A stretch of 48,906 nucleotides of DNA from the IMG/VR virus record IMGVR_UViG_3300036399_001023; one strand, 5' to 3'. Within the stretch, counting starts at the first letter, position 1. The number at the start of each line of letters is the position of its first letter. This document shows, one piece after another, positions 6,049 to 20,481 of the stretch. The notes beneath the pieces are model-generated. The model worked only from the letters and a program-made list of their open reading frames with translations, ran no database searches and was not told the origin of the DNA. The position numbers and the translations under genes are program-made. Origin of the DNA: a virus (Duplodnaviria > Heunggongvirae > Uroviricota > Caudoviricetes).

Positions 6049-8106
6049 TCAAGTCTCAAAGTCGAAAACGCCTTCTTCTGACGCAGACAGATCGGCTGCA
6101 AATAGTGAATATCCTACTTTGTAGTGATTCGCGTCAACAGTTGACGAGGCGCCATCATCTTTGCAAGTTGGGGGGTACTTATAGATGCTCGCGTCCCACA
6201 CTGGTGCTGGAACGACTTCGAGTGTTTCTTCCTTGAGATCATTGACGAGGAATCCACGTAAGTTCTCAGAGGAAGGCGAGCGTAAGTACTCCCCATCCCA
6301 GTCACCGTAAGTCTCCCCAGGTAAGGAAGTGTTTGCTGTGCGACTGTGAAGAAGGTCGTAGCTCACAAGCTCGGCCTCATCAAAGTCGTCGTAGGGAGTG
6401 TCAAAACCAGGGGCAATATCCGAATTGTCGTAGTCGTCCGACGTCCCTTGGCCGTACAAAATGTCTGAGAATAGGTAAGGTTCCGAGTACAAAAACGGTA
6501 GCAACCCCTTTTCACCACCGTACAAAACTACTTGTTCGTACACAAGTGGCTCCGACTGCTCCGGGGGGCACGACATTTTCTCAGGGCTGAGCGAAGACCC
6601 CCAGTACCCGAAATTCTTACACACAAGGTTTACCTTTTGCCATGTACTATCGTTTCTCCCATACTCAGGGGGGAGGCGCACAAAGTACCGCTCCCAGTTC
6701 GGGTCACTAGGCCCGTGGTTTGTGTCGGCCCGAAGAGAGTTAGGGCGCCGAAGAAGCTCAAATTCGCTTGGAGAGTTAATTACCTGCAAAGCTTCACTTT
6801 TCCATGGCCTTAAGAGGGTTCCGCTATCTTCCACATTCGGAGACATGTAGTGAGTGCGGCCACTGAGTACGAGGTCGGATATTTTGCAGTTGAAGTTGGA
6901 TGCTAGGGAGTTAGATATGCTTATTACGGGCTCTCCCACTGAACCTGTGTAAACAAAGCGGAAAGTTTGAGATGGTGTGTCAATTTCATACAGAAACTGG
7001 AAGCTGTCGGAGACGTGAGAAACTCCTTCAAAAACTCTAACTCCGTCACAGTGAACTACAGCTGCACCAAAGTCCCCAAAGTCTGAAATTGGCCCCTCGC
7101 TCGCACTTTCTATGTAAGCCAAGACATCGGAAAAACTTACGTACTTGTCGACAGCGCTCGTATGGACAGAGACCCTTTCGTTAAACCCGTGGATACCTAG
7201 GGCATCAAAAACAAAGTTAAAGGGCAACCTTCCACCTTTGTTCGACCATACTCCGTAAAAGTTATCGATCTTTTCTCGAGTGGCCCAGTCAGAAGGGTTT
7301 GACCAAGGGGACACCCTCACTCGCAAGGTGGAACTTTCGTACGTTAGCTCTCCTTCGAGCCCGACCCCGTTAGAGGAAAGATCTGAGGGAATATCAAGGT
7401 ACCAACTCTCCCTCGAAAAGTCGTAGGTCGGGTCAATTGATACTGCTAAGGTGGTGAAAGTTACAGGGAGACTAAAAAAGTACCGTGCACCCGCTACAAA
7501 TGTGTTAAACTTGTAAGGTATTGTCCTCGCTGTGTTGTACTTCGGGAACAGGACAAGGTCGGACCCCTGGACTTCGCAGAGGAAGGAAGCGTCGGCGGTC
7601 GAACCTGGTTCGGGGCGAAAGAACGGACTGGGCAGAGCGCCAGGAGCTATCACCTTGAGCTGCTTATTTTCTGAAAGGTCAGTCAAGAACTGTCCCCCCA
7701 AACCTTCGAAAGTTAGAGCATAGTTGGCCCCAGCTTGAGACACTTCCTTCAGCAAGTACGAAAAGTCCCCTAAGTAAAAGGTCTGACCGACTTGTATTCG
7801 TGGGTCTGCCTTTATAATTACTGTGCCGTTCCAGTTGCGAACTTCGACAACTTCTGGGTGAATGTACCCGTCGTACACACCGAAGGATCCCGTCAAAAGG
7901 TTTCGCTTTTGGGTCACTGTTGAGGCAAGATTGGCCCAGTATTCAGGACCGCTCCAGCCCAAAAGCTGGGCGAGCCAGTCAAGTTGGTCGTTTACGCGGC
8001 TCTCGGTTAGAGCCACTGAGTTGAGTTGTTCGGCAGTTAGGTAAAGGTTTGTGGTACCGTAGTCCTCAAAGTCACTAATACTGAACGAGGGGTTTAAGTC
8101 GGTCAT
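6049..8106 (-). CDS. Baseplate/tail protein, possibly P2 gpI-like N-terminus
   Basis: LDWLAQLLGW..W..QKRNLL resembles gpI-type wedge proteins; lies downstream of baseplate J. Confidence 0.45.
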   Translation of the reverse strand: MTDLNPSFSISDFEDYGTTNLYLTAEQLNSVALTESRVNDQLDWLAQLLGWSGPEYWANLASTVTQKRNLLTGSFGVYDGYIHPEVVEVRNWNGTVIIKADPRIQVGQTFYLGDFSYLLKEVSQAGANYALTFEGLGGQFLTDLSENKQLKVIAPGALPSPFFRPEPGSTADASFLCEVQGSDLVLFPKYNTARTIPYKFNTFVAGARYFFSLPVTFTTLAVSIDPTYDFSRESWYLDIPSDLSSNGVGLEGELTYESSTLRVRVSPWSNPSDWATREKIDNFYGVWSNKGGRLPFNFVFDALGIHGFNERVSVHTSAVDKYVSFSDVLAYIESASEGPISDFGDFGAAVVHCDGVRVFEGVSHVSDSFQFLYEIDTPSQTFRFVYTGSVGEPVISISNSLASNFNCKISDLVLSGRTHYMSPNVEDSGTLLRPWKSEALQVINSPSEFELLRRPNSLRADTNHGPSDPNWERYFVRLPPEYGRNDSTWQKVNLVCKNFGYWGSSLSPEKMSCPPEQSEPLVYEQVVLYGGEKGLLPFLYSEPYLFSDILYGQGTSDDYDNSDIAPGFDTPYDDFDEAELVSYDLLHSRTANTSLPGETYGDWDGEYLRSPSSENLRGFLVNDLKEETLEVVPAPVWDASIYKYPPTCKDDGASSTVDANHYKVGYSLFAADLSASEEGVFDFET

Positions 8107-13248: not shown

Positions 13249-16200
13249 TCAGGATAGGATGTTGGTGATCATAGCGCCAGAACCGATAAGACCAGTTGCG
13301 CCGAGGCCAACTAGGTTAACCACACGTTCAATTGTGATTTCAGCACGAACAACGCGGCGTTCACGAATGTAGTATTCGGGACGGACGGCTGGGGTGCCTG
13401 TGAGCTGATCATTTGTGTTATCATAAGGGCTCTTTATCCCTTATTTCTTCACATTTCTGTGAAGATCAGACTATATCTTCTTCCCTTTAACTTTGAGGGT
13501 TTAGGGAGTGGGGCACTCTTGTCAGCTTCATCACTGTTCTAGTGGTATGCTGTTAGTCGTTGAACGTTCGTTTTCTCCCGAAAACGCTTCGCTGCTGATT
13601 ACCATAGTTTCAAACTCTCGTTTGAAGCCGTAGGCTTCCCAGCAATTCACCCCATTGACTCGCGGATCAGGCGAGTAATTTGATGTTACCATCAAACCAC
13701 GCATTCAGCTCGTTTAAAAGAAACGATGTTGTTAGCATACGTGTAAGAGAAGGCAGGAGTCGCAGCATTCGCACCACCAGCAGGCATGATGGAATCAGAA
13801 GGACCGTTAGGGCTGTAGAACAGAAGGATACCGTTAGCTGGGAATACCGGCTGTAGGGTTCCATCTTGCGCTAAGTAACGACCTTCGGCAACACGTAGGC
13901 CACGCTCAAGACCGAAGTAGCGAGCAATGACGTCAGTGTCGACGCTGTCTGCAGATGTGTACTTGGTACGATCAAGGATCTTCTCGTTGGTCAGCAAGAG
14001 GTCAAACACGGAAGAACCGACGACTGCGGAGTTTGGACGGATACCGATTTGGTTGGCGACTGCACGCTTGAGGGTTAGAATGTCTTCAATTGGGTTAGAA
14101 GTAGCACCAGACCAGGCGGCGTCTCCAGCAACGGAGCCGTAAGCTGTCTTGAAGTTTGTCCAGGTTGTGAAACCGAGTCCGGTCTGGGAACCTGCGGTTC
14201 CGTTATAGGGCTCGTAAGGGTTGTAAGTCGCGGTGACGGAAACAGCTTGAGCAACGGTGTACTCGTAGCTGTTCATCAATCTGGACATTGCATTCCTGGT
14301 TTCGATTGCGCGAAGATCTACTTGTGCAGGCAAATTGTTATCGTAAAGGCTCTTTATCCTTTACTTCTTTCTGTTTCCAGAAAGTTCAGACTATATCTTC
14401 ACCTTTGCTAAGCAAAGGGCTGGGCGCTCGTGGACGAGTTATTGTTGTCGAAACTCATCGTCTAGTCGTTGAACCTTTTCACCACAGAAATCATAATGAT
14501 TTCTCGACGTAGTAAACTTGGCTGCTGATTGCCTGTTTCTTTAATGGAAATTCAGGGATCCCAGCAATTCACCCAGTTAATTTGTGGTTAAGCTGCCACA
14601 GCAAGAGCCAAACAACCCTCGCCAGCGTTTTCAATTCAATACTGTTATCGTAAAGGCTCTTTATCCCTTACTTCTTTCTGTTTCCAGAAAGTTCAGACTA
14701 TATCTTCACCCTTGTTAGGGTGCTAGGCGCTCTTGTCAGCTTCATCACTGTTCTAGTGGTATGCTGTTAGTCGTTGAACGTTCTCTCAGTCCCCTGAGAG
14801 TTTCGCTGCTGATTGCCTTGTGTTTCAGAGAAGTCACTCCTGAAACCGTCAGGTTTCCCAGCAATTCACCCAGTTTTTCTTTCAGTTTCTCAACTGATGG
14901 AGGCTATTGATTCAACCTCTTCAGGCAATTCCCAGGCGACCACTTCCTGCTCTAGAGCATAAGGCTCAGAGTCGTAGCGGCTTTGGACGTATGGGATGTT
15001 AGTTCCGTAAGCACGACGGAAATCGTTTATAGCAAACTGCTCCTTCCCAAATCTGAGAATTCTCCCAGCTCTGGTAGGAGTGTCAACAACCGGTGCGATA
15101 AAATTCGCAATATTTGTTGACGGAAGCATAAAACCTTGTGCAAGGGTTGTAAGACATTTGTTATCGTAAAGGCTCTTTATCCTCTACTTCTCCTTGTTTC
15201 CAAAGAGTTCAGACTATATCATACTCTTTATTACAGACATAACAGATTTAGTTTTGGGGATTCCTAACAATCTACAAAGCACAACATAAGATGGTTTACC
15301 ATTCTCTAGCCATACTTTGAGTATTTCATCGGATACACCCCATAATGGACTATCTTTTAGTCTCCAGTGGTCTCTCCCCCTAGGAAGAGAAGGGGGGATA
15401 GAGTTTCTATGACTCTCATTCCACGGGGTACCTCTCTTAGTCTCCCTCATCCTTTCAATTCTCTCTAGTAGAACTTCTTTAGAGGTGTTTCTGTAGGTTT
15501 CTTTGTTTGAGTTAGAGATTTTTTCTCTGGACTCGAAACTAAGTTTCCTATTCCTACCTGCTTCAGAAAGTTTATTACGGGTCTCTTCAGAAAAAATGTA
15601 GTTATTTTTTAGAAACTCATACACCCTAGAATTGACGAAAGCTTCGTCAATCGTGTGGGACATAAGCCAAGCAGCCCGTTGGGCTTGTTGGTTTCCCGTA
15701 AATGCTCTAAAGAGGAGCTGATGGGCTATGTAATGGGCCCTGGGTGTAAGGTAAATTAAGTTCACTTTGGCATCACTTCCTCCCATTTTAGTTGGGTGGA
15801 TGTGGTGTTCGTGACAGCATTTAAACTTTTCGAGGGAACCGAATTTTTCTAAGAAGAAAAAGTATCTGTTTAGTTGTCTGTAACTAGTGAGTCCCGGCGC
15901 TCGTGGAAGAGTTATTCTTGGGTCAGTCATCTTCTAGTCGTTGAACCTTTTTACCTAACTCTACTATAGCTAGTAAAGACCCTAAGTAAACTTGGCTGCT
16001 GATTGCCTTTTTTGCAAAAGCAAAACTAAGGTGTCCCAGCAATTCACCGGATTTTCTTTGTTAAAACAAAGCCACTCTAAAAAATGGGATCGACCCCTGC
16101 ATAAGTCTGTTGTAGCAACTTGTTATCGTAAAGGCTCTTTATCCTTTACTTCTTTCTGTTTCCAGAAAGTTCAGACTATATCATCATCTTTGCCTGAGCA

Positions 16201-16390
16201 AAGAGTCGGGCACTCGTGTCAGCTTCATCACTGTTCTAGTGGTATGCTGTTAGTCGTTGAACCTTGCCCCTATCCCTAGGGGCCTTGGCTGCTGATTGCC
16301 TATTTTGCAAAAGCAAAACTAAGGTGTTCCAGCAATTCACCCGATTTTCAATCAGAGTCACCTCTGAGTGGAACCTTTATGATTCATCAT
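13249..16390 (-). CDS. Major capsid protein, spliced: join(16390-16382, 16115-16084, 15154-14915, 14636-14615, 14330-13739, 13409-13249), 351 aa
   Basis: Joining the exons at U/G boundaries gives one open 1056-nt frame MMN|LQQTYAGVDPI|LTTLAQGFMLP..EEV|IENAGEG|PAQVDLR..SYTY|QLTGTPAV..ILS*; located between decoration and tube genes; AAGGA RBS. Confidence 0.9.
13410..13738 (-). ncRNA. Group I intron 5 of capsid gene (329 nt, ORF-less)
   Basis: P/Q/R/S present; IGS GCUGAAUGCGUG pairs with both 5' exon CACGU (P1) and 3' exon UCAGC (P10). Confidence 0.92.
14331..14614 (-). ncRNA. Group I intron 4 of capsid gene (284 nt, ORF-less)
   Basis: P/Q/R/S present; P1 GCGAGGGU/GCUCUUGC; P3 CUGGGUG/CGCCCAG. 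Confidence 0.92.
14637..14914 (-). ncRNA. Group I intron 3 of capsid gene (278 nt, ORF-less)
   Basis: P/Q/R/S present; P1 GAGGU/GCCUC; P10 UCAAU pairs with 3' exon AUUGA. Confidence 0.92.
15155..16083 (-). mobile_element. Group I intron 2 of capsid gene (929 nt) carrying an HNH homing endonuclease in the P8 loop
   Basis: P/Q/R elements at ~15930-16050, S element at ~15210; P3 UCCGGUG/CGCCGGG; P1 CCAU/GUGG. Confidence 0.92.
15214..15930 (-). CDS. Intron-encoded HNH homing endonuclease with NUMOD3-like repeats
   Basis: HEHHIHPTKMGGSDAKVNLIYLTPRAHYIAHQLL HNH motif; FSEETRNKLSEA and LSFESREKISNS NUMOD3-like repeats. Confidence 0.85.
   Translation of the reverse strand: MTDPRITLPRAPGLTSYRQLNRYFFFLEKFGSLEKFKCCHEHHIHPTKMGGSDAKVNLIYLTPRAHYIAHQLLFRAFTGNQQAQRAAWLMSHTIDEAFVNSRVYEFLKNNYIFSEETRNKLSEAGRNRKLSFESREKISNSNKETYRNTSKEVLLERIERMRETKRGTPWNESHRNSIPPSLPRGRDHWRLKDSPLWGVSDEILKVWLENGKPSYVVLCRLLGIPKTKSVMSVIKSMI
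16116..16381 (-). ncRNA. Group I intron 1 of capsid gene (266 nt, ORF-less)
   Basis: P (GAATTGCTGGAA), Q (AATCAGCAGC), R (GTTCAACGACTA), S (GATATAGTC) elements; P3 UCGGGUG/UGCCCGA; 5' exon ends in U, intron ends in G. Confidence 0.9.
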
Positions 16391-16425
16391 AATAGATGTT
16401 TCCTTGTGTGTAAAGTTGACTTCAA

Positions 16426-17901: not shown

Positions 17902-20481
17902 TCAGCCCCGACCTCCCCAAGGAATGGAACGCTTGATTGCCTCAACATAGTCGCACTCTCCCGCCTGAACCATCTTCATTGCACGAGAATGGGGGTCTAG
18001 ATCTTCGTCATCTTCAGGGTCACTGAAACGTCCCTCTGCGACAACTTCACCGAAGTGAACCATGTTGGGCAAACGCTCAAGCAGCGCAAACAACTTGGTC
18101 GTTGGAGTTTCTCCTTCTGCGAAGTCAAGTGTACCGAACTCAAGACCTTCGCAGTAGTTTTGAAGCTCTCTCTGAGGAATTACTCCGTCAGTCATCTTTC
18201 CCTCGGTGTAGAGGCTGTCGACAAAGTCGGCGATGCGTTGCTTACGGGAGTTGGTTTGGTGCTCCTGGTACTCTTTCCTCAGGCGAGAATTTTCGTTCTT
18301 AAGATTTTCCAGCTCGCGTTGGAACTCCTCGAACATTTGAACCGGATATCCCATGGGCTTAGCCTGTCCCATTGACCCCATTCCGCAGAAGTCTTCAGTT
18401 TCAGAGAAATCGTCGTCCTCATCGTACATCTCCTCATCGTCGTCCTCTTCCATAACGGGACGCTTTTGCCCGTAAGTCGAGCCCTTTCCGGTTCGAGTCA
18501 TTGGATCGCGTTCTGCAAACTTGCGAGAAACTTTCCTGGAAGTCCCACACTCTTCCATGTCAAGATCGTCTTCTTCAGCGTGGTCGATCGAAGGCTTTTC
18601 ACCCGATCGCTGACGCAGCACACGAACTTTGCGACTACCAACGACACTTTCTAGGTCGACAGCAATGTCGAGGTCGTCCGGCTCTTCCTCGGACCGGTCT
18701 GGGAAGTTTGTGGGTCCGTCTTCGCGACCGTGGGGGTCGTTCCCCGCAGAAACACCTGCCTTTTTCGCAGTTCGTGTGACACCGTCTGACTCTTCGCTGT
18801 GATCCGCAATTTCCTTACCTTTGACAGACGCCCTCTTTTGTCCGGAGGTTTGGTGAAGAACGCGAGAAACTTTGTTGCCTTTGGTGCTCTGAAGCGGCAC
18901 AGCAATATCTTCGGTGTCGGGCTCTTCCTCAGAGTCCTCAGAGACGGTTGTTGGTCCACCGTCGCGACCGTGCGGGTCGTTTCCATCGGAGGTTCCCGGC
19001 TTGTTTCTTCCGGGTAGGCCGTACTCGCCGTCGTTGTACTGGTCGTCTTCCATCGAGCGGCGGCGACCCTCAGGTTGGTCGGCCCAACGGGAATCTTCGT
19101 CCCCTTCACCGTCGAGTGCTTTCGCCAGCTCTTCTCGGTCTTGCTCCTGGTCACCGTCCTTAGCAGTGTTTAAACGGTCCGTGTCTTGCGACGCATCCGA
19201 CGTCAAACCTTCTCGGTCTTCCTCATCCCCTTGTCCAACCGACTGACGGTCTCCGTAACTATCGTCGGATGACCGTGCTGTCTTTGACCGCCCAGCGGGA
19301 TCCCCCGGATCTTTCTCGGCACGTTTTCCAAACGACGCCTTCCGATTCGCAGTTTTCTTAAACCCTACCTCAGCGTAGTCGCCCTCAGAGTCTTCCTCGT
19401 CGGATTCTTCCATCTTCGCTGTCTTGGCCTTCATCTTAGCGATATTTTTCTTGAATGCCGCAGGAACTTCTCCGTGTTCCTCGGAAAGTTCATCTTCGTC
19501 GCCTTCGTCACCATCATCGGTGGCTTTGTTCTTAGCCTTCATCTCAGCGATATTTTTCTTGAAAGCAGCGGGAATCTCACGGTGTTCGTCCGAGAGTTCT
19601 TCATCGCCCTCTTCAAAAACCTCTTCCACAACTTGTACGTGGTGGCCGTGAGCCCCTTTCGCAACTTTGCGAGAGACTCCTTCGTCGAACTTCTCTTCTG
19701 GAAATTTGTCTTCCATGTTTGCTAGACTTTGAGCGGATTCGGAGACTTCAGCTCCTTCACGCCCCATTTTCTTTTTCATTTCGGAAAATTGCTGGTTAGG
19801 GTTTTCGGGGGCGGTACTTTCATCCGCCGAATTTGTAGTTTGTGTCGAATCGACGTCTGTTTCAGTCTGATCGTCTTGGTTTTCTTGTAGCTCTTGAAGA
19901 GAAGAACTCATGTCTCCACGAATTTCCTCAAGCTTTTCCTTTAGGATTTCTAACGGGCTTCGCTCAACAAGAAGTGTGGGACCAAGCTCGTCGTCAAAGA
20001 TGTCTTCTGGAGATAGAGCTGAAGCGAAGTTGAACACTCCGTTACCTTCCTCAGAGAACGAGAAAGGCTCCAGGCCCTTAACCGCAGGGGGCGACGCTCC
20101 CAAAAGTGCCAAGTGCCGAACGCTCCACTGTCCCTCATGCGGGTTAATTGGAGAGTTCGGAGAGTAGAAGGATATGGAGACTTTGCGGTAATGCCCTTTT
20201 TTCACTAAATCTTTAGCAGTGTCAGTGAAGTCAACGTCTGCGTATAGCTTCTCTCCGCTTCTGACCAACTTTTTGACCCACCCAAAAGAAGGAACACTGT
20301 CGTTGTCCCCAGTATGACCAATAACAAGGGGTGCCTCATGTGTTTGGGGGTCGTAGGAATCAACAACTTGCTGAAGGTCTTGAGGTGTGAAGTTCCTTTC
20401 CACGCCCTGAGCAGAAACCTGGGGTCCCGCCGTAAAAACATGAACACGTTTTGAAAACACTTTGCTACTCGTTGTACTCAT
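17902..20481 (-). CDS. Prohead protease/scaffold (Mu gpI-like) with very long acidic repeat-containing linker
   Basis: N-terminal APLVIGH..FGWVKKL..YRKVSISF..RHLALLGASPPAVKGL; C-terminal coiled coil; 859 aa. Confidence 0.8.
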   Translation of the reverse strand: MSTTSSKVFSKRVHVFTAGPQVSAQGVERNFTPQDLQQVVDSYDPQTHEAPLVIGHTGDNDSVPSFGWVKKLVRSGEKLYADVDFTDTAKDLVKKGHYRKVSISFYSPNSPINPHEGQWSVRHLALLGASPPAVKGLEPFSFSEEGNGVFNFASALSPEDIFDDELGPTLLVERSPLEILKEKLEEIRGDMSSSLQELQENQDDQTETDVDSTQTTNSADESTAPENPNQQFSEMKKKMGREGAEVSESAQSLANMEDKFPEEKFDEGVSRKVAKGAHGHHVQVVEEVFEEGDEELSDEHREIPAAFKKNIAEMKAKNKATDDGDEGDEDELSEEHGEVPAAFKKNIAKMKAKTAKMEESDEEDSEGDYAEVGFKKTANRKASFGKRAEKDPGDPAGRSKTARSSDDSYGDRQSVGQGDEEDREGLTSDASQDTDRLNTAKDGDQEQDREELAKALDGEGDEDSRWADQPEGRRRSMEDDQYNDGEYGLPGRNKPGTSDGNDPHGRDGGPTTVSEDSEEEPDTEDIAVPLQSTKGNKVSRVLHQTSGQKRASVKGKEIADHSEESDGVTRTAKKAGVSAGNDPHGREDGPTNFPDRSEEEPDDLDIAVDLESVVGSRKVRVLRQRSGEKPSIDHAEEDDLDMEECGTSRKVSRKFAERDPMTRTGKGSTYGQKRPVMEEDDDEEMYDEDDDFSETEDFCGMGSMGQAKPMGYPVQMFEEFQRELENLKNENSRLRKEYQEHQTNSRKQRIADFVDSLYTEGKMTDGVIPQRELQNYCEGLEFGTLDFAEGETPTTKLFALLERLPNMVHFGEVVAEGRFSDPEDDEDLDPHSRAMKMVQAGECDYVEAIKRSIPWGGRG

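What the first reader, a model, noticed from the sequence alone, without database searches (positions are those of the whole stretch)
13249..16390. Major capsid gene interrupted by five group I introns in 3.1 kb
Seen: five cassettes each carry group I P/Q/R/S elements and covarying P3 and P7 helices. Every 5' exon ends in U, every intron ends in G, and each intron has an internal guide sequence complementary to its own exon ends. Removing 16381-16116, 16083-15155, 14914-14637, 14614-14331 and 13738-13410 gives one 1056-nt ORF (351 aa) in the capsid position; about two thirds of the locus is intron. Established: phage group I introns usually occur singly, mostly in DNA-metabolism genes; Staphylococcus phage Twort with three introns in one late gene is the classic extreme. 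Inference: five obligatory self-splicing events gate the most abundant virion protein and could act as a timer or sensor for capsid production. The extra stem-loops between P7 and P3' suggest subgroup IA.
Basis: partly seen in the sequence, partly recalled or inferred. Interest (0 to 1): 0.95.

Follow-up and report, generated by a model that had tools for sequence, protein, structure and literature searches.

The report
Phage capsid gene with five introns
The only recognisable major capsid gene of this large uncultured cyanophage-like virus is cut into six pieces by five self-splicing group I introns, and close relatives carry from none to thirteen such introns in the same 1-kb gene, so these are mobile genetic parasites at an extreme density rather than a built-in timer.

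Summary
Rfam finds five group I introns above threshold, at the stated places and nowhere else in the window. A 95%-identical intron-less orthologue folds as an HK97-type capsid protein. Intron 2 carries an HNH/NUMOD3 homing endonuclease.

New here:
- Among 51 complete orthologous genes from viral metagenome contigs, intron number runs 0, 1, 2, 3, 5, 6, 9, 11 and 13, across 16 insertion sites.
- Genes about 99% identical in their exons carry different intron sets.
- Guide sequences co-vary with synonymous exon changes.
- All but two sites hold members of one intron family.

This fits mobile selfish introns. The "timer or sensor" idea has no support, because close relatives make the same protein with no introns.

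Precedents exist: one intron in other phage capsid genes, a crAss-like capsid gene in five fragments, and about 18 introns per genome in gut jumbo phages. This scan has also noted multi-intron capsid genes on other DNA.

Splicing itself was not shown; no RNA data were available.

The parts
16382..16390 (-). Exon 1 (9 nt, ATG ATG AAT = MMN). An AAGGA Shine-Dalgarno-like motif lies about 10 nt upstream of the ATG.
16116..16381 (-). Intron 1 (266 nt, no ORF), inserted after CDS nt 9. P1 pairs GAAU with GUUC.
   Evidence: Rfam 94 bits; boundaries T/G; orthologous introns at the same site in relatives, some with an endonuclease gene
16084..16115 (-). Exon 2 (32 nt)
15155..16083 (-). Intron 2 (929 nt), inserted after CDS nt 41. 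The ribozyme is interrupted in P8 by an endonuclease gene.
   Evidence: Rfam 56 bits, full model
15214..15930 (-). Intron-encoded HNH/NUMOD3-type homing endonuclease ORF (238 aa). Its ATG lies in the stem between P7 and P3'. Its TGA stop lies inside the conserved GUCUGAAC of the ribozyme core.
   Evidence: phrog_655 at 6e-28 and Pfam NUMOD3 at 24.9 bits against a cut-off of 20.4; position
14915..15154 (-). Exon 3 (240 nt)
   Evidence: phrog_1005 major head protein, profile positions 16-93
14637..14914 (-). Intron 3 (278 nt, no ORF), inserted after CDS nt 281. P1 pairs GAGGU with GCCUC; P10 pairs AUUGA with UCAAU.
   Evidence: Rfam 103 bits; P1+P10 of 10 bp with compensatory changes in relatives
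14615..14636 (-). Exon 4 (22 nt, encoding IENAGEG)
14331..14614 (-). Intron 4 (284 nt, no ORF), inserted after CDS nt 303, with a long P1 (up to 10 bp).
   Evidence: Rfam 91 bits; an 867-nt endonuclease-bearing version sits at this site in G001/L029
13739..14330 (-). Exon 5 (592 nt)
   Evidence: Pfam Phage_cap_E at 1e-9; phrog_1005 profile positions 102-268
13410..13738 (-). Intron 5 (329 nt, no ORF), inserted after CDS nt 895. It has an extended P1 loop hairpin. P10 pairs UCAGCUC with GAGCUGA (7 bp).
   Evidence: Rfam 81 bits
13249..13409 (-). Exon 6 (161 nt including the stop codon)
17902..20481 (-). Upstream head-module gene: an 859-aa protein with a Mu gpI-like (protease/scaffold) domain. 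Context only.
   Evidence: Pfam PF10123 at 27.8 bits
12777..13220 (-). Downstream 147-aa tail-tube-like protein, in the same order as in S-CBWM1. Context only.

Best explanation
The locus is the single major capsid gene (lambda gpE / Mu-type, HK97 fold) of a large, uncultured cyanophage-like myovirus whose nearest cultured relative is Synechococcus phage S-CBWM1.

It has been colonised by five members of one family of group I (subgroup IA-like) self-splicing introns. The late transcript must lose all five introns to give the 351-aa capsid mRNA. Each removal uses the standard two-step, guanosine-initiated reaction, guided by the intron's own P1/P10 pairing.

The introns are mobile selfish elements. 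Intron 2 still encodes an HNH/NUMOD3 homing endonuclease. The other four are endonuclease-less versions of introns that carry such a gene at the same sites in relatives. Spread between co-infecting phages by homing explains why near-identical capsid genes carry different intron sets. Occasional colonisation of new sites that share the short guide-complementary sequence may add further sites.

Shown here: ribozyme identity, exact frame restoration, fold of the product, population polymorphism, and guide/exon covariation.

Inferred: splicing in vivo, endonuclease activity, and the route of spread.
For: - Ribozymes: five RF00028 hits of 56-103 bits, and none elsewhere in the window.
- Junctions: U/G splice-site rule and in-frame junctions. 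Gap-free 68% alignment to the intron-less S-CBWM1 protein.
- Structure: RNAalifold on 30 family members, with no Rfam model involved, recovers P3-P9. 36 of 49 predicted pairs keep pairing through changes on both sides.
- Guide sequences: own-site P1+P10 averages 9.6 bp against 5.3 bp across sites. Exon/intron compensatory changes occur at sites 93, 281, 303 and 895.
- Polymorphism: the same gene in 51 complete loci carries 0-13 introns at 16 sites, in 16 occupancy patterns. Rfam independently counts 11 introns in L060 and 12 in L063.
- Independent assembly: contig L012 has the window's exact five-intron layout.
- Endonucleases: long introns at 11 sites carry forward ORFs. Nine of the ten ORFs tested from ten other sites, plus the window's own at site 41, are phrog_655 homing endonucleases.
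- Fold: a model of the 95%-identical intron-less orthologue has pLDDT 89.7. It matches 3bjq (TM 0.71/0.81), then lambda, HK97 and other capsid proteins.
- Sole capsid gene: no second capsid gene in the window or in the near-complete relatives G001 and G002.
Against:
- Introns 1 and 2 have only a 4-bp exon pairing in P1. That is not distinguishable from chance on its own.
- The window's own genome assembly is not held. The absence of another capsid gene was therefore tested only in the window and in relatives.
- One related intron (site 93 in L060/L063) lacks a terminal G at the boundary predicted by exon homology.
- Endonuclease-driven homing predicts co-conversion of flanking exons. I saw mosaicism but no simple homogenisation of the intron-rich 5' region.
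Confidence: 0.9

Rival explanations
1. Regulatory gate: the five obligatory splicing events were retained because they time or sense conditions (GTP, Mg2+, translation state) for capsid production.
For: Five serial ribozyme reactions must all succeed to yield the most abundant virion protein. Intron 1 lies 9 nt after the start codon, so ribosome loading and P1 formation must compete. All five introns have in-frame stops soon after the 5' splice site (read from the sequence).
Against: Proteins 95-99% identical are encoded by alleles with 0, 3, 5 (a different set), 6, 11 or 13 introns. No site is occupied in all intron-bearing genes. Endonuclease-bearing and endonuclease-less versions alternate at the same sites. 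That pattern fits a parasite's invasion and decay cycle, not a conserved regulator.
Confidence: 0.06
2. Competitive weapon (compatible with the best explanation): the array of site-specific intron endonucleases cuts the intron-less capsid alleles of co-infecting relatives. Intron-bearing phages then gain by interference competition or marker exclusion.
For: An intron-encoded HNH endonuclease of jumbo phage PhiPA3 cuts an essential gene of co-infecting PhiKZ and confers a competitive advantage (PMC11620839). Here diverged phrog_655 endonucleases sit at ten or more sites of the one gene no competitor can lose. Many intron patterns coexist in related contigs.
Against: Only one of the window's five introns still has an endonuclease gene. 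No cleavage or competition data exist, and no host is known. Ordinary selfish homing explains the same pattern.
Confidence: 0.3
3. Dead gene or assembly artefact: the interrupted gene is a pseudogene or a chimeric metagenome assembly, and the virion uses another capsid protein.
For: The window comes from an uncultured genome. Its own assembly could not be searched.
Against: The exact five-intron layout recurs in an independent contig (L012). Related layouts recur in dozens of contigs from many samples. Exons are under strong purifying selection, and every spliced product is stop-free. Ribozyme helices and guide sequences covary. No other capsid family or second copy was found in the 98-100% complete relatives.
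Confidence: 0.02

Closest known systems
Staphylococcus phage Twort orf142 (three group I introns in one late gene; Landthaler & Shub 1999, as cited in PMC6669764 and PMC3706429)
   Same: Several related, self-splicing, IA-type group I introns in one phage late gene, some without an ORF. Short exons lie between the introns.
   Different: There are five introns here (up to 13 in relatives) against three. The host gene is the major capsid gene. The first intron sits three codons into the ORF. Splicing has been shown experimentally for Twort but not here.
crAss-like phage Zeta-group major capsid gene (cMAG OLRF01000054; Yutin et al. 2021, PMC7886860)
   Same: A phage major capsid ORF split into five fragments. 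Three of the four intervening segments encode group I intron-type domains. The genomes carry a high intron load.
   Different: That case was recognised by endonuclease domains, with up to 14 introns spread over a whole genome. Here the introns are defined by ribozyme models, and almost all of a genome's introns sit in the capsid gene (14 of 17 hits in G002). The phage lineage and habitat also differ.
Single capsid-gene introns: mycobacteriophage LittleE (spliced, RT-PCR and N-terminal sequencing; PMC3706429) and lactococcal phage Tuc2009 (cited there)
   Same: A group I-type intron with a homing endonuclease inside a major capsid gene that must be spliced efficiently for virion production.
   Different: Those genes carry one intron each. 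The LittleE endonuclease is LAGLIDADG-like and on the opposite strand.
Jug jumbo gut phages (PMC12880540)
   Same: Jumbo phages with many small group I introns and HNH endonucleases in essential genes. Splicing of about half of the predicted introns is supported by metatranscriptome reads.
   Different: Their introns are scattered over many genes (terL in 2-3 pieces, nrdD, polymerase), at about 18.5 per 360-400 kb genome. They are not concentrated in one 1-kb gene.
Agaricus bisporus mitochondrial cox1 (title: 'the largest reservoir of mitochondrial group I introns', PMC2987802)
   Same: One highly conserved essential gene acts as a reservoir for many group I introns with homing endonucleases. 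Intron presence varies between strains.
   Different: That is a eukaryotic organelle with mostly LAGLIDADG or GIY-YIG endonucleases, large introns and protein-assisted splicing. Here the host is a phage gene with compact 215-330-nt ribozymes and HNH endonucleases.

Membership tests
Group I catalytic intron (Rfam RF00028) | Covariance-model score above the curated gathering threshold | tested here: met
   All five score 56-103 bits against a threshold of 50, each matching the full model 1-253
Group I catalytic intron (Rfam RF00028) | 5' exon ends in U paired to a G of the internal guide sequence (P1); intron ends in G | tested here: met
   All five are T/G. A guide G follows with 4-10 bp of exon pairing. 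P1 is short (4 bp) for introns 1 and 2.
Group I catalytic intron (Rfam RF00028) | Conserved core helices P3-P9 supported by covariation | tested here: met
   RNAalifold on 30 introns: 36 of 49 pairs have compensatory double changes. The P7 pseudoknot has 5 invariant pairs and 1 covarying pair.
Group I catalytic intron (Rfam RF00028) | Precise excision restores the host reading frame | tested here: met
   A 351-aa ORF that aligns without gaps at the junctions to an intron-less orthologue
Group I catalytic intron (Rfam RF00028) | Guanosine-dependent self-splicing of the RNA | not testable with these tools
This needs in vitro splicing or RNA-seq.
Subgroup IA of group I introns | Extra helical element (P7.1/P7.2 or P7.1/P7.1a) between P7 and the 3' strand of P3 (definition recalled from Michel & Westhof 1990) | tested here: met
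   A roughly 32-36-nt insert follows GACUA in all five introns, in two sequence versions. Its base stem covaries in 13-16 of 30 sequences. The finer class (IA1, IA2 or IA3) could not be assigned; subgroup-specific models were not available.
HNH-type homing endonuclease with NUMOD3 (I-HmuI-like; phrog_655) | Sequence match to the family, and location inside a self-splicing intron | tested here: met
   phrog_655 at 5.9e-28 and NUMOD3 at 24.9 bits against a cut-off of 20.4. The ORF 15214-15930 lies inside intron 2.
HNH-type homing endonuclease with NUMOD3 (I-HmuI-like; phrog_655) | Site-specific cleavage or nicking of the intron-less allele, and intron homing | not testable with these tools
   Only indirect evidence: presence/absence polymorphism of introns and endonuclease genes among near-identical alleles
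HK97-fold major capsid protein, Phage_cap_E family (PF03864) | Pfam match above the curated cut-off | tested here: met
   Exon 5 alone scores 38.3 bits against 22.9. The intron-less orthologue scores 33.7 bits. The PHROG major head protein profile is matched colinearly by exons 3 and 5.
HK97-fold major capsid protein, Phage_cap_E family (PF03864) | HK97 fold | tested here: met
   Tested on the 95%-identical intron-less orthologue, not the spliced sequence itself (tool rule). pLDDT 89.7. Foldseek matches 3bjq at TM 0.71/0.81, then lambda, HK97, P23-45 and encapsulins. Profile against the PDB: 3bjq at E 3e-27.
HK97-fold major capsid protein, Phage_cap_E family (PF03864) | It is the capsid protein actually used (the only such gene; present in virions) | tested here: inconclusive
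   No second copy in the window or in G001. No PF05065 or PF07068 gene in G001 or G002 (the PF07068 control found nothing anywhere). The window's own genome is not held, and there are no proteomics.

The most novel reading that the evidence does not exclude
The capsid gene of this freshwater phage lineage is a breeding ground for introns. One ribozyme-plus-HNH-endonuclease family has multiplied inside a single 1,056-nt gene to at least 16 sites, with 13 occupied at once in a complete 279-kb genome and exons as short as 5 nt. On this reading, new sites arise by retargeting of the short guide sequence: the closest paralogues sit at sites sharing the same 4-nt target (9/93 GAAU, 150/192 CGGU), as reverse splicing would predict. 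The resulting endonuclease array would then serve in competition between co-infecting relatives. That would make it the densest intron array reported for a bacterial or phage gene, and a natural system for watching group I intron transposition and an intron arms race.
Probability: 0.3. Interest if true: 0.85.

Novelty: new variant of a known kind. Interest (0 to 1): 0.72.

Why it matters
Group I introns in phage genes are textbook material, and intron-rich huge phages have been described recently. What is unusual here is how many introns sit in one gene.

- The window has five paralogous introns in a 1-kb capsid gene. Its relatives form a natural series from 0 to 13 introns in otherwise near-identical genes.
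- That series captures gain, endonuclease loss and site-hopping of one intron family in snapshots. This is hard to obtain for group I introns outside fungal mitochondria.
- It raises a concrete biochemical question. How does a phage splice up to 13 similar ribozymes, separated by exons of 5-10 nt, accurately and fast enough to make its most abundant protein?
- There is a practical consequence. Gene callers break such capsid genes into fragments, and the public protein sets contain many exon-shaped pieces. Capsid-based classification and marker searches will therefore miss or mis-place these phages.

Tried and rejected
- Own genome: the window's assembly is not held. Genome-wide statements rest on the relatives G001 and G002.
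- First structure prediction: a 13-sequence alignment failed (pLDDT 32) and was discarded. A 124-sequence alignment worked.
- Co-conversion: I expected homing to have homogenised the intron-rich 5' third of the gene. Third-codon-position identity there is not higher than in the rest. The 100% protein identity of that region therefore reflects purifying selection. Only mosaicism is seen: against L018 the window is 100% identical over nt 701-1056 and 87% over nt 1-120.
- Shared-target idea: it holds for sites 9/93 and 150/192. It fails for 36/318, which share GTGGAT but carry unrelated introns.
- PhiMa05: this 273-kb Microcystis jumbo phage was considered as a possible identity. Its capsid protein belongs to another lineage (PMC8093824).
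- Spliced-alignment errors: my script missed a 5-nt exon in L063-type genes and produced a false stop. I corrected this by hand and re-verified it. L076 still has one unresolved stop near sites 884/895.
- Inteins, frameshifting or bypassing: not needed. All five inserts are full ribozymes with stops in frame.
Full report

Yes. A scan of the whole window against Rfam finds exactly five matches above any family's gathering score. All are RF00028 (group I intron), all on the minus strand, and all inside 13447-16395 (103, 94, 91, 81 and 56 bits). The weakest match is the long intron, whose ribozyme is interrupted by an ORF.

Removing the five segments gives a 1056-nt ORF of 351 aa, from the ATG at 16390 to the stop ending at 13249. 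The exons are 9, 32, 240, 22, 592 and 161 nt, and introns make up 66% of the locus.

**2. Are the junctions right?**

The nearest annotated phage protein is the major head protein of Synechococcus phage S-CBWM1, whose gene is uninterrupted. The spliced protein aligns with it from the first residue to the last at 68% identity. There is no gap at any of the five junctions.

The PHROG major-head-protein profile is covered colinearly: exon 3 matches positions 16-93 and exon 5 matches 102-268. Exon 5 alone passes the Pfam Phage_cap_E threshold.

Gene order matches a head module: a Mu gpI-like protease/scaffold, two small ORFs, the capsid gene, a tail-tube-like protein, then a baseplate J protein. 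The capsid gene followed by a 147-aa protein is also the S-CBWM1 arrangement.

**3. Is the product a capsid protein?**

The spliced sequence itself may not be sent to the folding tool. I therefore folded an intron-less orthologue from a related contig (L028, 95% identical).

- A shallow alignment gave an unusable model.
- A 124-sequence alignment, built from a search of 1.8 billion representative proteins, gave pLDDT 89.7 and pTM 0.88.
- Foldseek's best match is 3bjq, a Phage_cap_E-family prophage protein (TM 0.71/0.81). It is followed by lambda, HK97 Head II, P23-45, Chi, cyanophage A4 and encapsulins.
- A sequence profile also hits 3bjq, at E 3e-27.

**4. Is there another capsid gene?**

None is in the window. 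The window's own assembly is not held.

The nearest record, G001 (277 kb, 98% complete), has only the one interrupted copy. Neither G001 nor the complete 279-kb genome G002 has an HK97-type (PF05065) or gp23-type (PF07068) capsid gene. The gp23 control search found nothing in any genome, so that negative result is weak.

**5. Anatomy of the introns**

The five introns share near-identical core blocks:

- GGGTGAATTGCTGG
- GGCAATCAGCAGC
- GTTCAACGACTA
- GATATAGTCTGAAC
- a common 3' tail, …GGATAAAGAGCC…ACGATAACA…G

They differ in P1, P2, P5, P6 and P8.

An extra element of about 34 nt lies between P7 and the 3' strand of P3, in two sequence versions. This is the position of the P7.1/P7.2 extension that defines subgroup IA (definition recalled from memory). 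I could not assign a finer subgroup.

RNAalifold on 30 family members, with no Rfam model involved, recovers P3, P4, P5, P6, the extra stem, P8, P9 and P9.1. In 36 of the 49 predicted pairs, pairing is kept through changes on both sides. P7 is a pseudoknot that I checked by hand. It has five invariant pairs and one A-U/G-C covarying pair next to a bulged base. So P3 covariation is confirmed, while P7 covariation is minimal.

Intron 2 carries a 238-aa ORF (15214-15930), matching phrog_655 homing endonuclease at 6e-28 and carrying a NUMOD3 motif. An HNH-like His/Asn motif is visible in the translation. Its start codon lies in the extra stem, and its stop codon lies within the conserved GUCUGAAC of the core.

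**6. Guide sequences**

For 63 distinct intron/exon contexts from the window and its relatives, the best P1+P10 pairing with the intron's own exons averages 9.6 bp. With the exons of other sites it averages 5.3 bp. Only 6% of cross-site pairings reach the own-site median.

For the window itself:

| Introns | P1+P10 pairing | Specific? |
|---|---|---|
| 3, 4, 5 | 10, 12 and 12 bp | Clearly specific |
| 1, 2 | 4-bp exon pairing only | Not above background |

More telling, synonymous exon differences between relatives are matched by compensating changes in the intron:

- P1 at site 281: GAGGT/GCCTC against GAAGT/GCTTC.
- P1 at site 303: three variants.
- P10 at site 93: TATCG/CGATA against TATTG/CAATA.
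- P10 at site 281: ATTGA/TCAAT against ATCGA/TCGAT.
- P10 at site 895: TCAGCTC/GAGCTGA against TCAACTC/GAGTTGA.

This is the strongest computational sign that these ribozymes are under selection to splice.

**7. The wider picture**

Searching viral metagenome contigs with exon 5 returned 80 related loci. I aligned the window's spliced CDS to each with a spliced-alignment script that reproduces the window's own structure exactly.

Of the 81 genes aligned (80 loci plus the window), 51 are complete genes with clean, stop-free spliced products, and the window is one of them. Their intron counts are:

| Introns per gene | 0 | 1 | 2 | 3 | 5 | 6 | 9 | 11 | 13 |
|---|---|---|---|---|---|---|---|---|---|
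| Loci | 25 | 6 | 3 | 2 | 5 | 6 | 1 | 1 | 2 |

The introns occupy 16 sites (after CDS nt 9, 36, 41, 75, 93, 150, 160, 192, 273, 281, 303, 318, 356, 889, 895 and 927), in 16 different occupancy patterns.

Rfam independently reports 11 introns above threshold in L060 and 12 in L063.

After I recovered a missed 5-nt exon, L063/L064 have 13 introns. These loci lie in G002, a complete genome with terminal repeats. Their exons are 9, 27, 5, 52, 57, 10, 32, 81, 8, 37, 38, 539, 32 and 129 nt, and the spliced product is 94.6% identical to the window's.

Some specific comparisons:

- An independent contig (L012) has the window's exact layout.
- G001 is about 99% identical in its exons. It shares four sites, lacks the intron at 895, has one at 356 instead, and has an 867-nt endonuclease-bearing intron at site 303.
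- Another group of near-identical genes has introns at 9, 36, 75, 93, 318 and 895.

Thirteen of the 16 sites fall in the first 356 nt. That region encodes the almost invariant N-terminal 120 residues.

**8. Relationships and mobility**

Apart from those at sites 75 and 889, all the introns are recognisably related (normalised BLAST scores 0.2-0.75). The closest cross-site pairs include 9/93 and 150/192, which also share the tetranucleotide bound by the guide (GAAT, CGGT). Sites 36 and 318 share GTGGAT but their introns are not close.

Every long intron (about 800-1020 nt) holds a forward ORF. These ORFs are only 27-40% identical between sites. Nine of ten tested fall in phrog_655.

At least ten sites have both endonuclease-bearing and endonuclease-less versions. 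The window's short introns 1, 4 and 5 are close to long versions at the same sites in relatives. This is the pattern expected from the homing cycle: invasion, endonuclease decay, then loss.

In G002, 14 of 17 intron hits are in the capsid gene. The other three split a DNA primase gene.

**9. Interpretation**

The best-supported reading is a family of mobile, self-splicing introns parasitising the capsid gene. All five must be removed from the RNA to make the capsid protein.

The timer or sensor idea is not excluded as a side effect. Nothing supports it as a function, however, because intron-less and differently interrupted alleles encode the same protein in close relatives.

A role for the endonucleases in competition between co-infecting phages is plausible by analogy with PhiPA3 gp210 (PMC11620839). 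It is untested.

**10. Comparison with what is known**

- Single capsid-gene introns are documented. LittleE's was shown to splice (PMC3706429), and Tuc2009 is cited in the same paper.
- Twort orf142 has three introns.
- A crAss-like Zeta-group capsid gene is split into five fragments (PMC7886860).
- Jug phages average 18.5 introns per genome, with terL in 2-3 pieces (PMC12880540).

I found no paper describing this phage lineage or an intron load of this size in one phage gene. The library searched is incomplete, so this is not proof of absence.

Earlier notes of this scan report multi-intron capsid genes on other DNA, including a ten-intron case. I did not check them.

The closest analogy in scale is fungal mitochondrial cox1 (PMC2987802).

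**11. Limits**

- There is no RNA or protein evidence.
- The host is unknown.
- The window's own genome was not searchable.
- Census coordinates come from my own alignment script. They were cross-checked by Rfam on 13 loci and by stop-free translation, but not curated by hand for every locus.

Noticed in passing
L091:1879-2955 (G002:C1:20378-21454), minus strand: In the complete 279-kb relative, three further group I introns split a DNA primase gene. phrog_25243 N-terminal and C-terminal halves lie in ORFs L091:2924-3856 and L091:909-1892.
   Followed up: partly
L060:3292-3568 and the same intron in L063, L067 and L075 (site 93): This intron variant has a divergent 3' tail. It ends in A, not G, at the boundary predicted by exon homology. 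It may use another 3' splice site or be impaired.
   Followed up: no
L076, around CDS nt 884-895 (locus about 7100-7750): An extra 209-nt insert lies beside the site-895 intron, and one stop remains in my spliced model. This could be a degenerate or nested element, or an alignment error.
   Followed up: no
window 15214-15216 and 15928-15930: The intron-2 endonuclease ORF begins inside the extra stem between P7 and P3'. It takes its TGA stop from the conserved GUCUGAAC ribozyme core, so coding and catalytic sequences overlap at both ends.
   Followed up: partly
window 14330-16190 (intron cores): Megablast of the locus hits unannotated stretches of Clostridium perfringens and Clostridioides difficile phages at 84-92% identity over 60-150 nt. 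The same ribozyme core family therefore occurs in Firmicutes phages.
   Followed up: no
public protein sets (P0122, P0126, P0131, P0147, P0222, P0261 and others): Many database 'proteins' are exon-shaped fragments of this capsid family (residues 120-298, 120-309, 1-94, 31-94, 299-351, 51-92). Gene callers are breaking intron-split capsid genes into pieces.
   Followed up: partly
window 13249-16390 compared with L018: The two genes are mosaic: 100% identical over CDS nt 701-1056, 95% over nt 121-360 and 87% over nt 1-120. That is where their intron sets differ, which suggests recombination or co-conversion with a diverged donor.
   Followed up: partly
window 17902-20481, minus strand: An 859-aa protein has an N-terminal Mu gpI-like domain followed by a very long acidic, repeat-rich middle region. 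This is unusually large for a head protease/scaffold.
   Followed up: no
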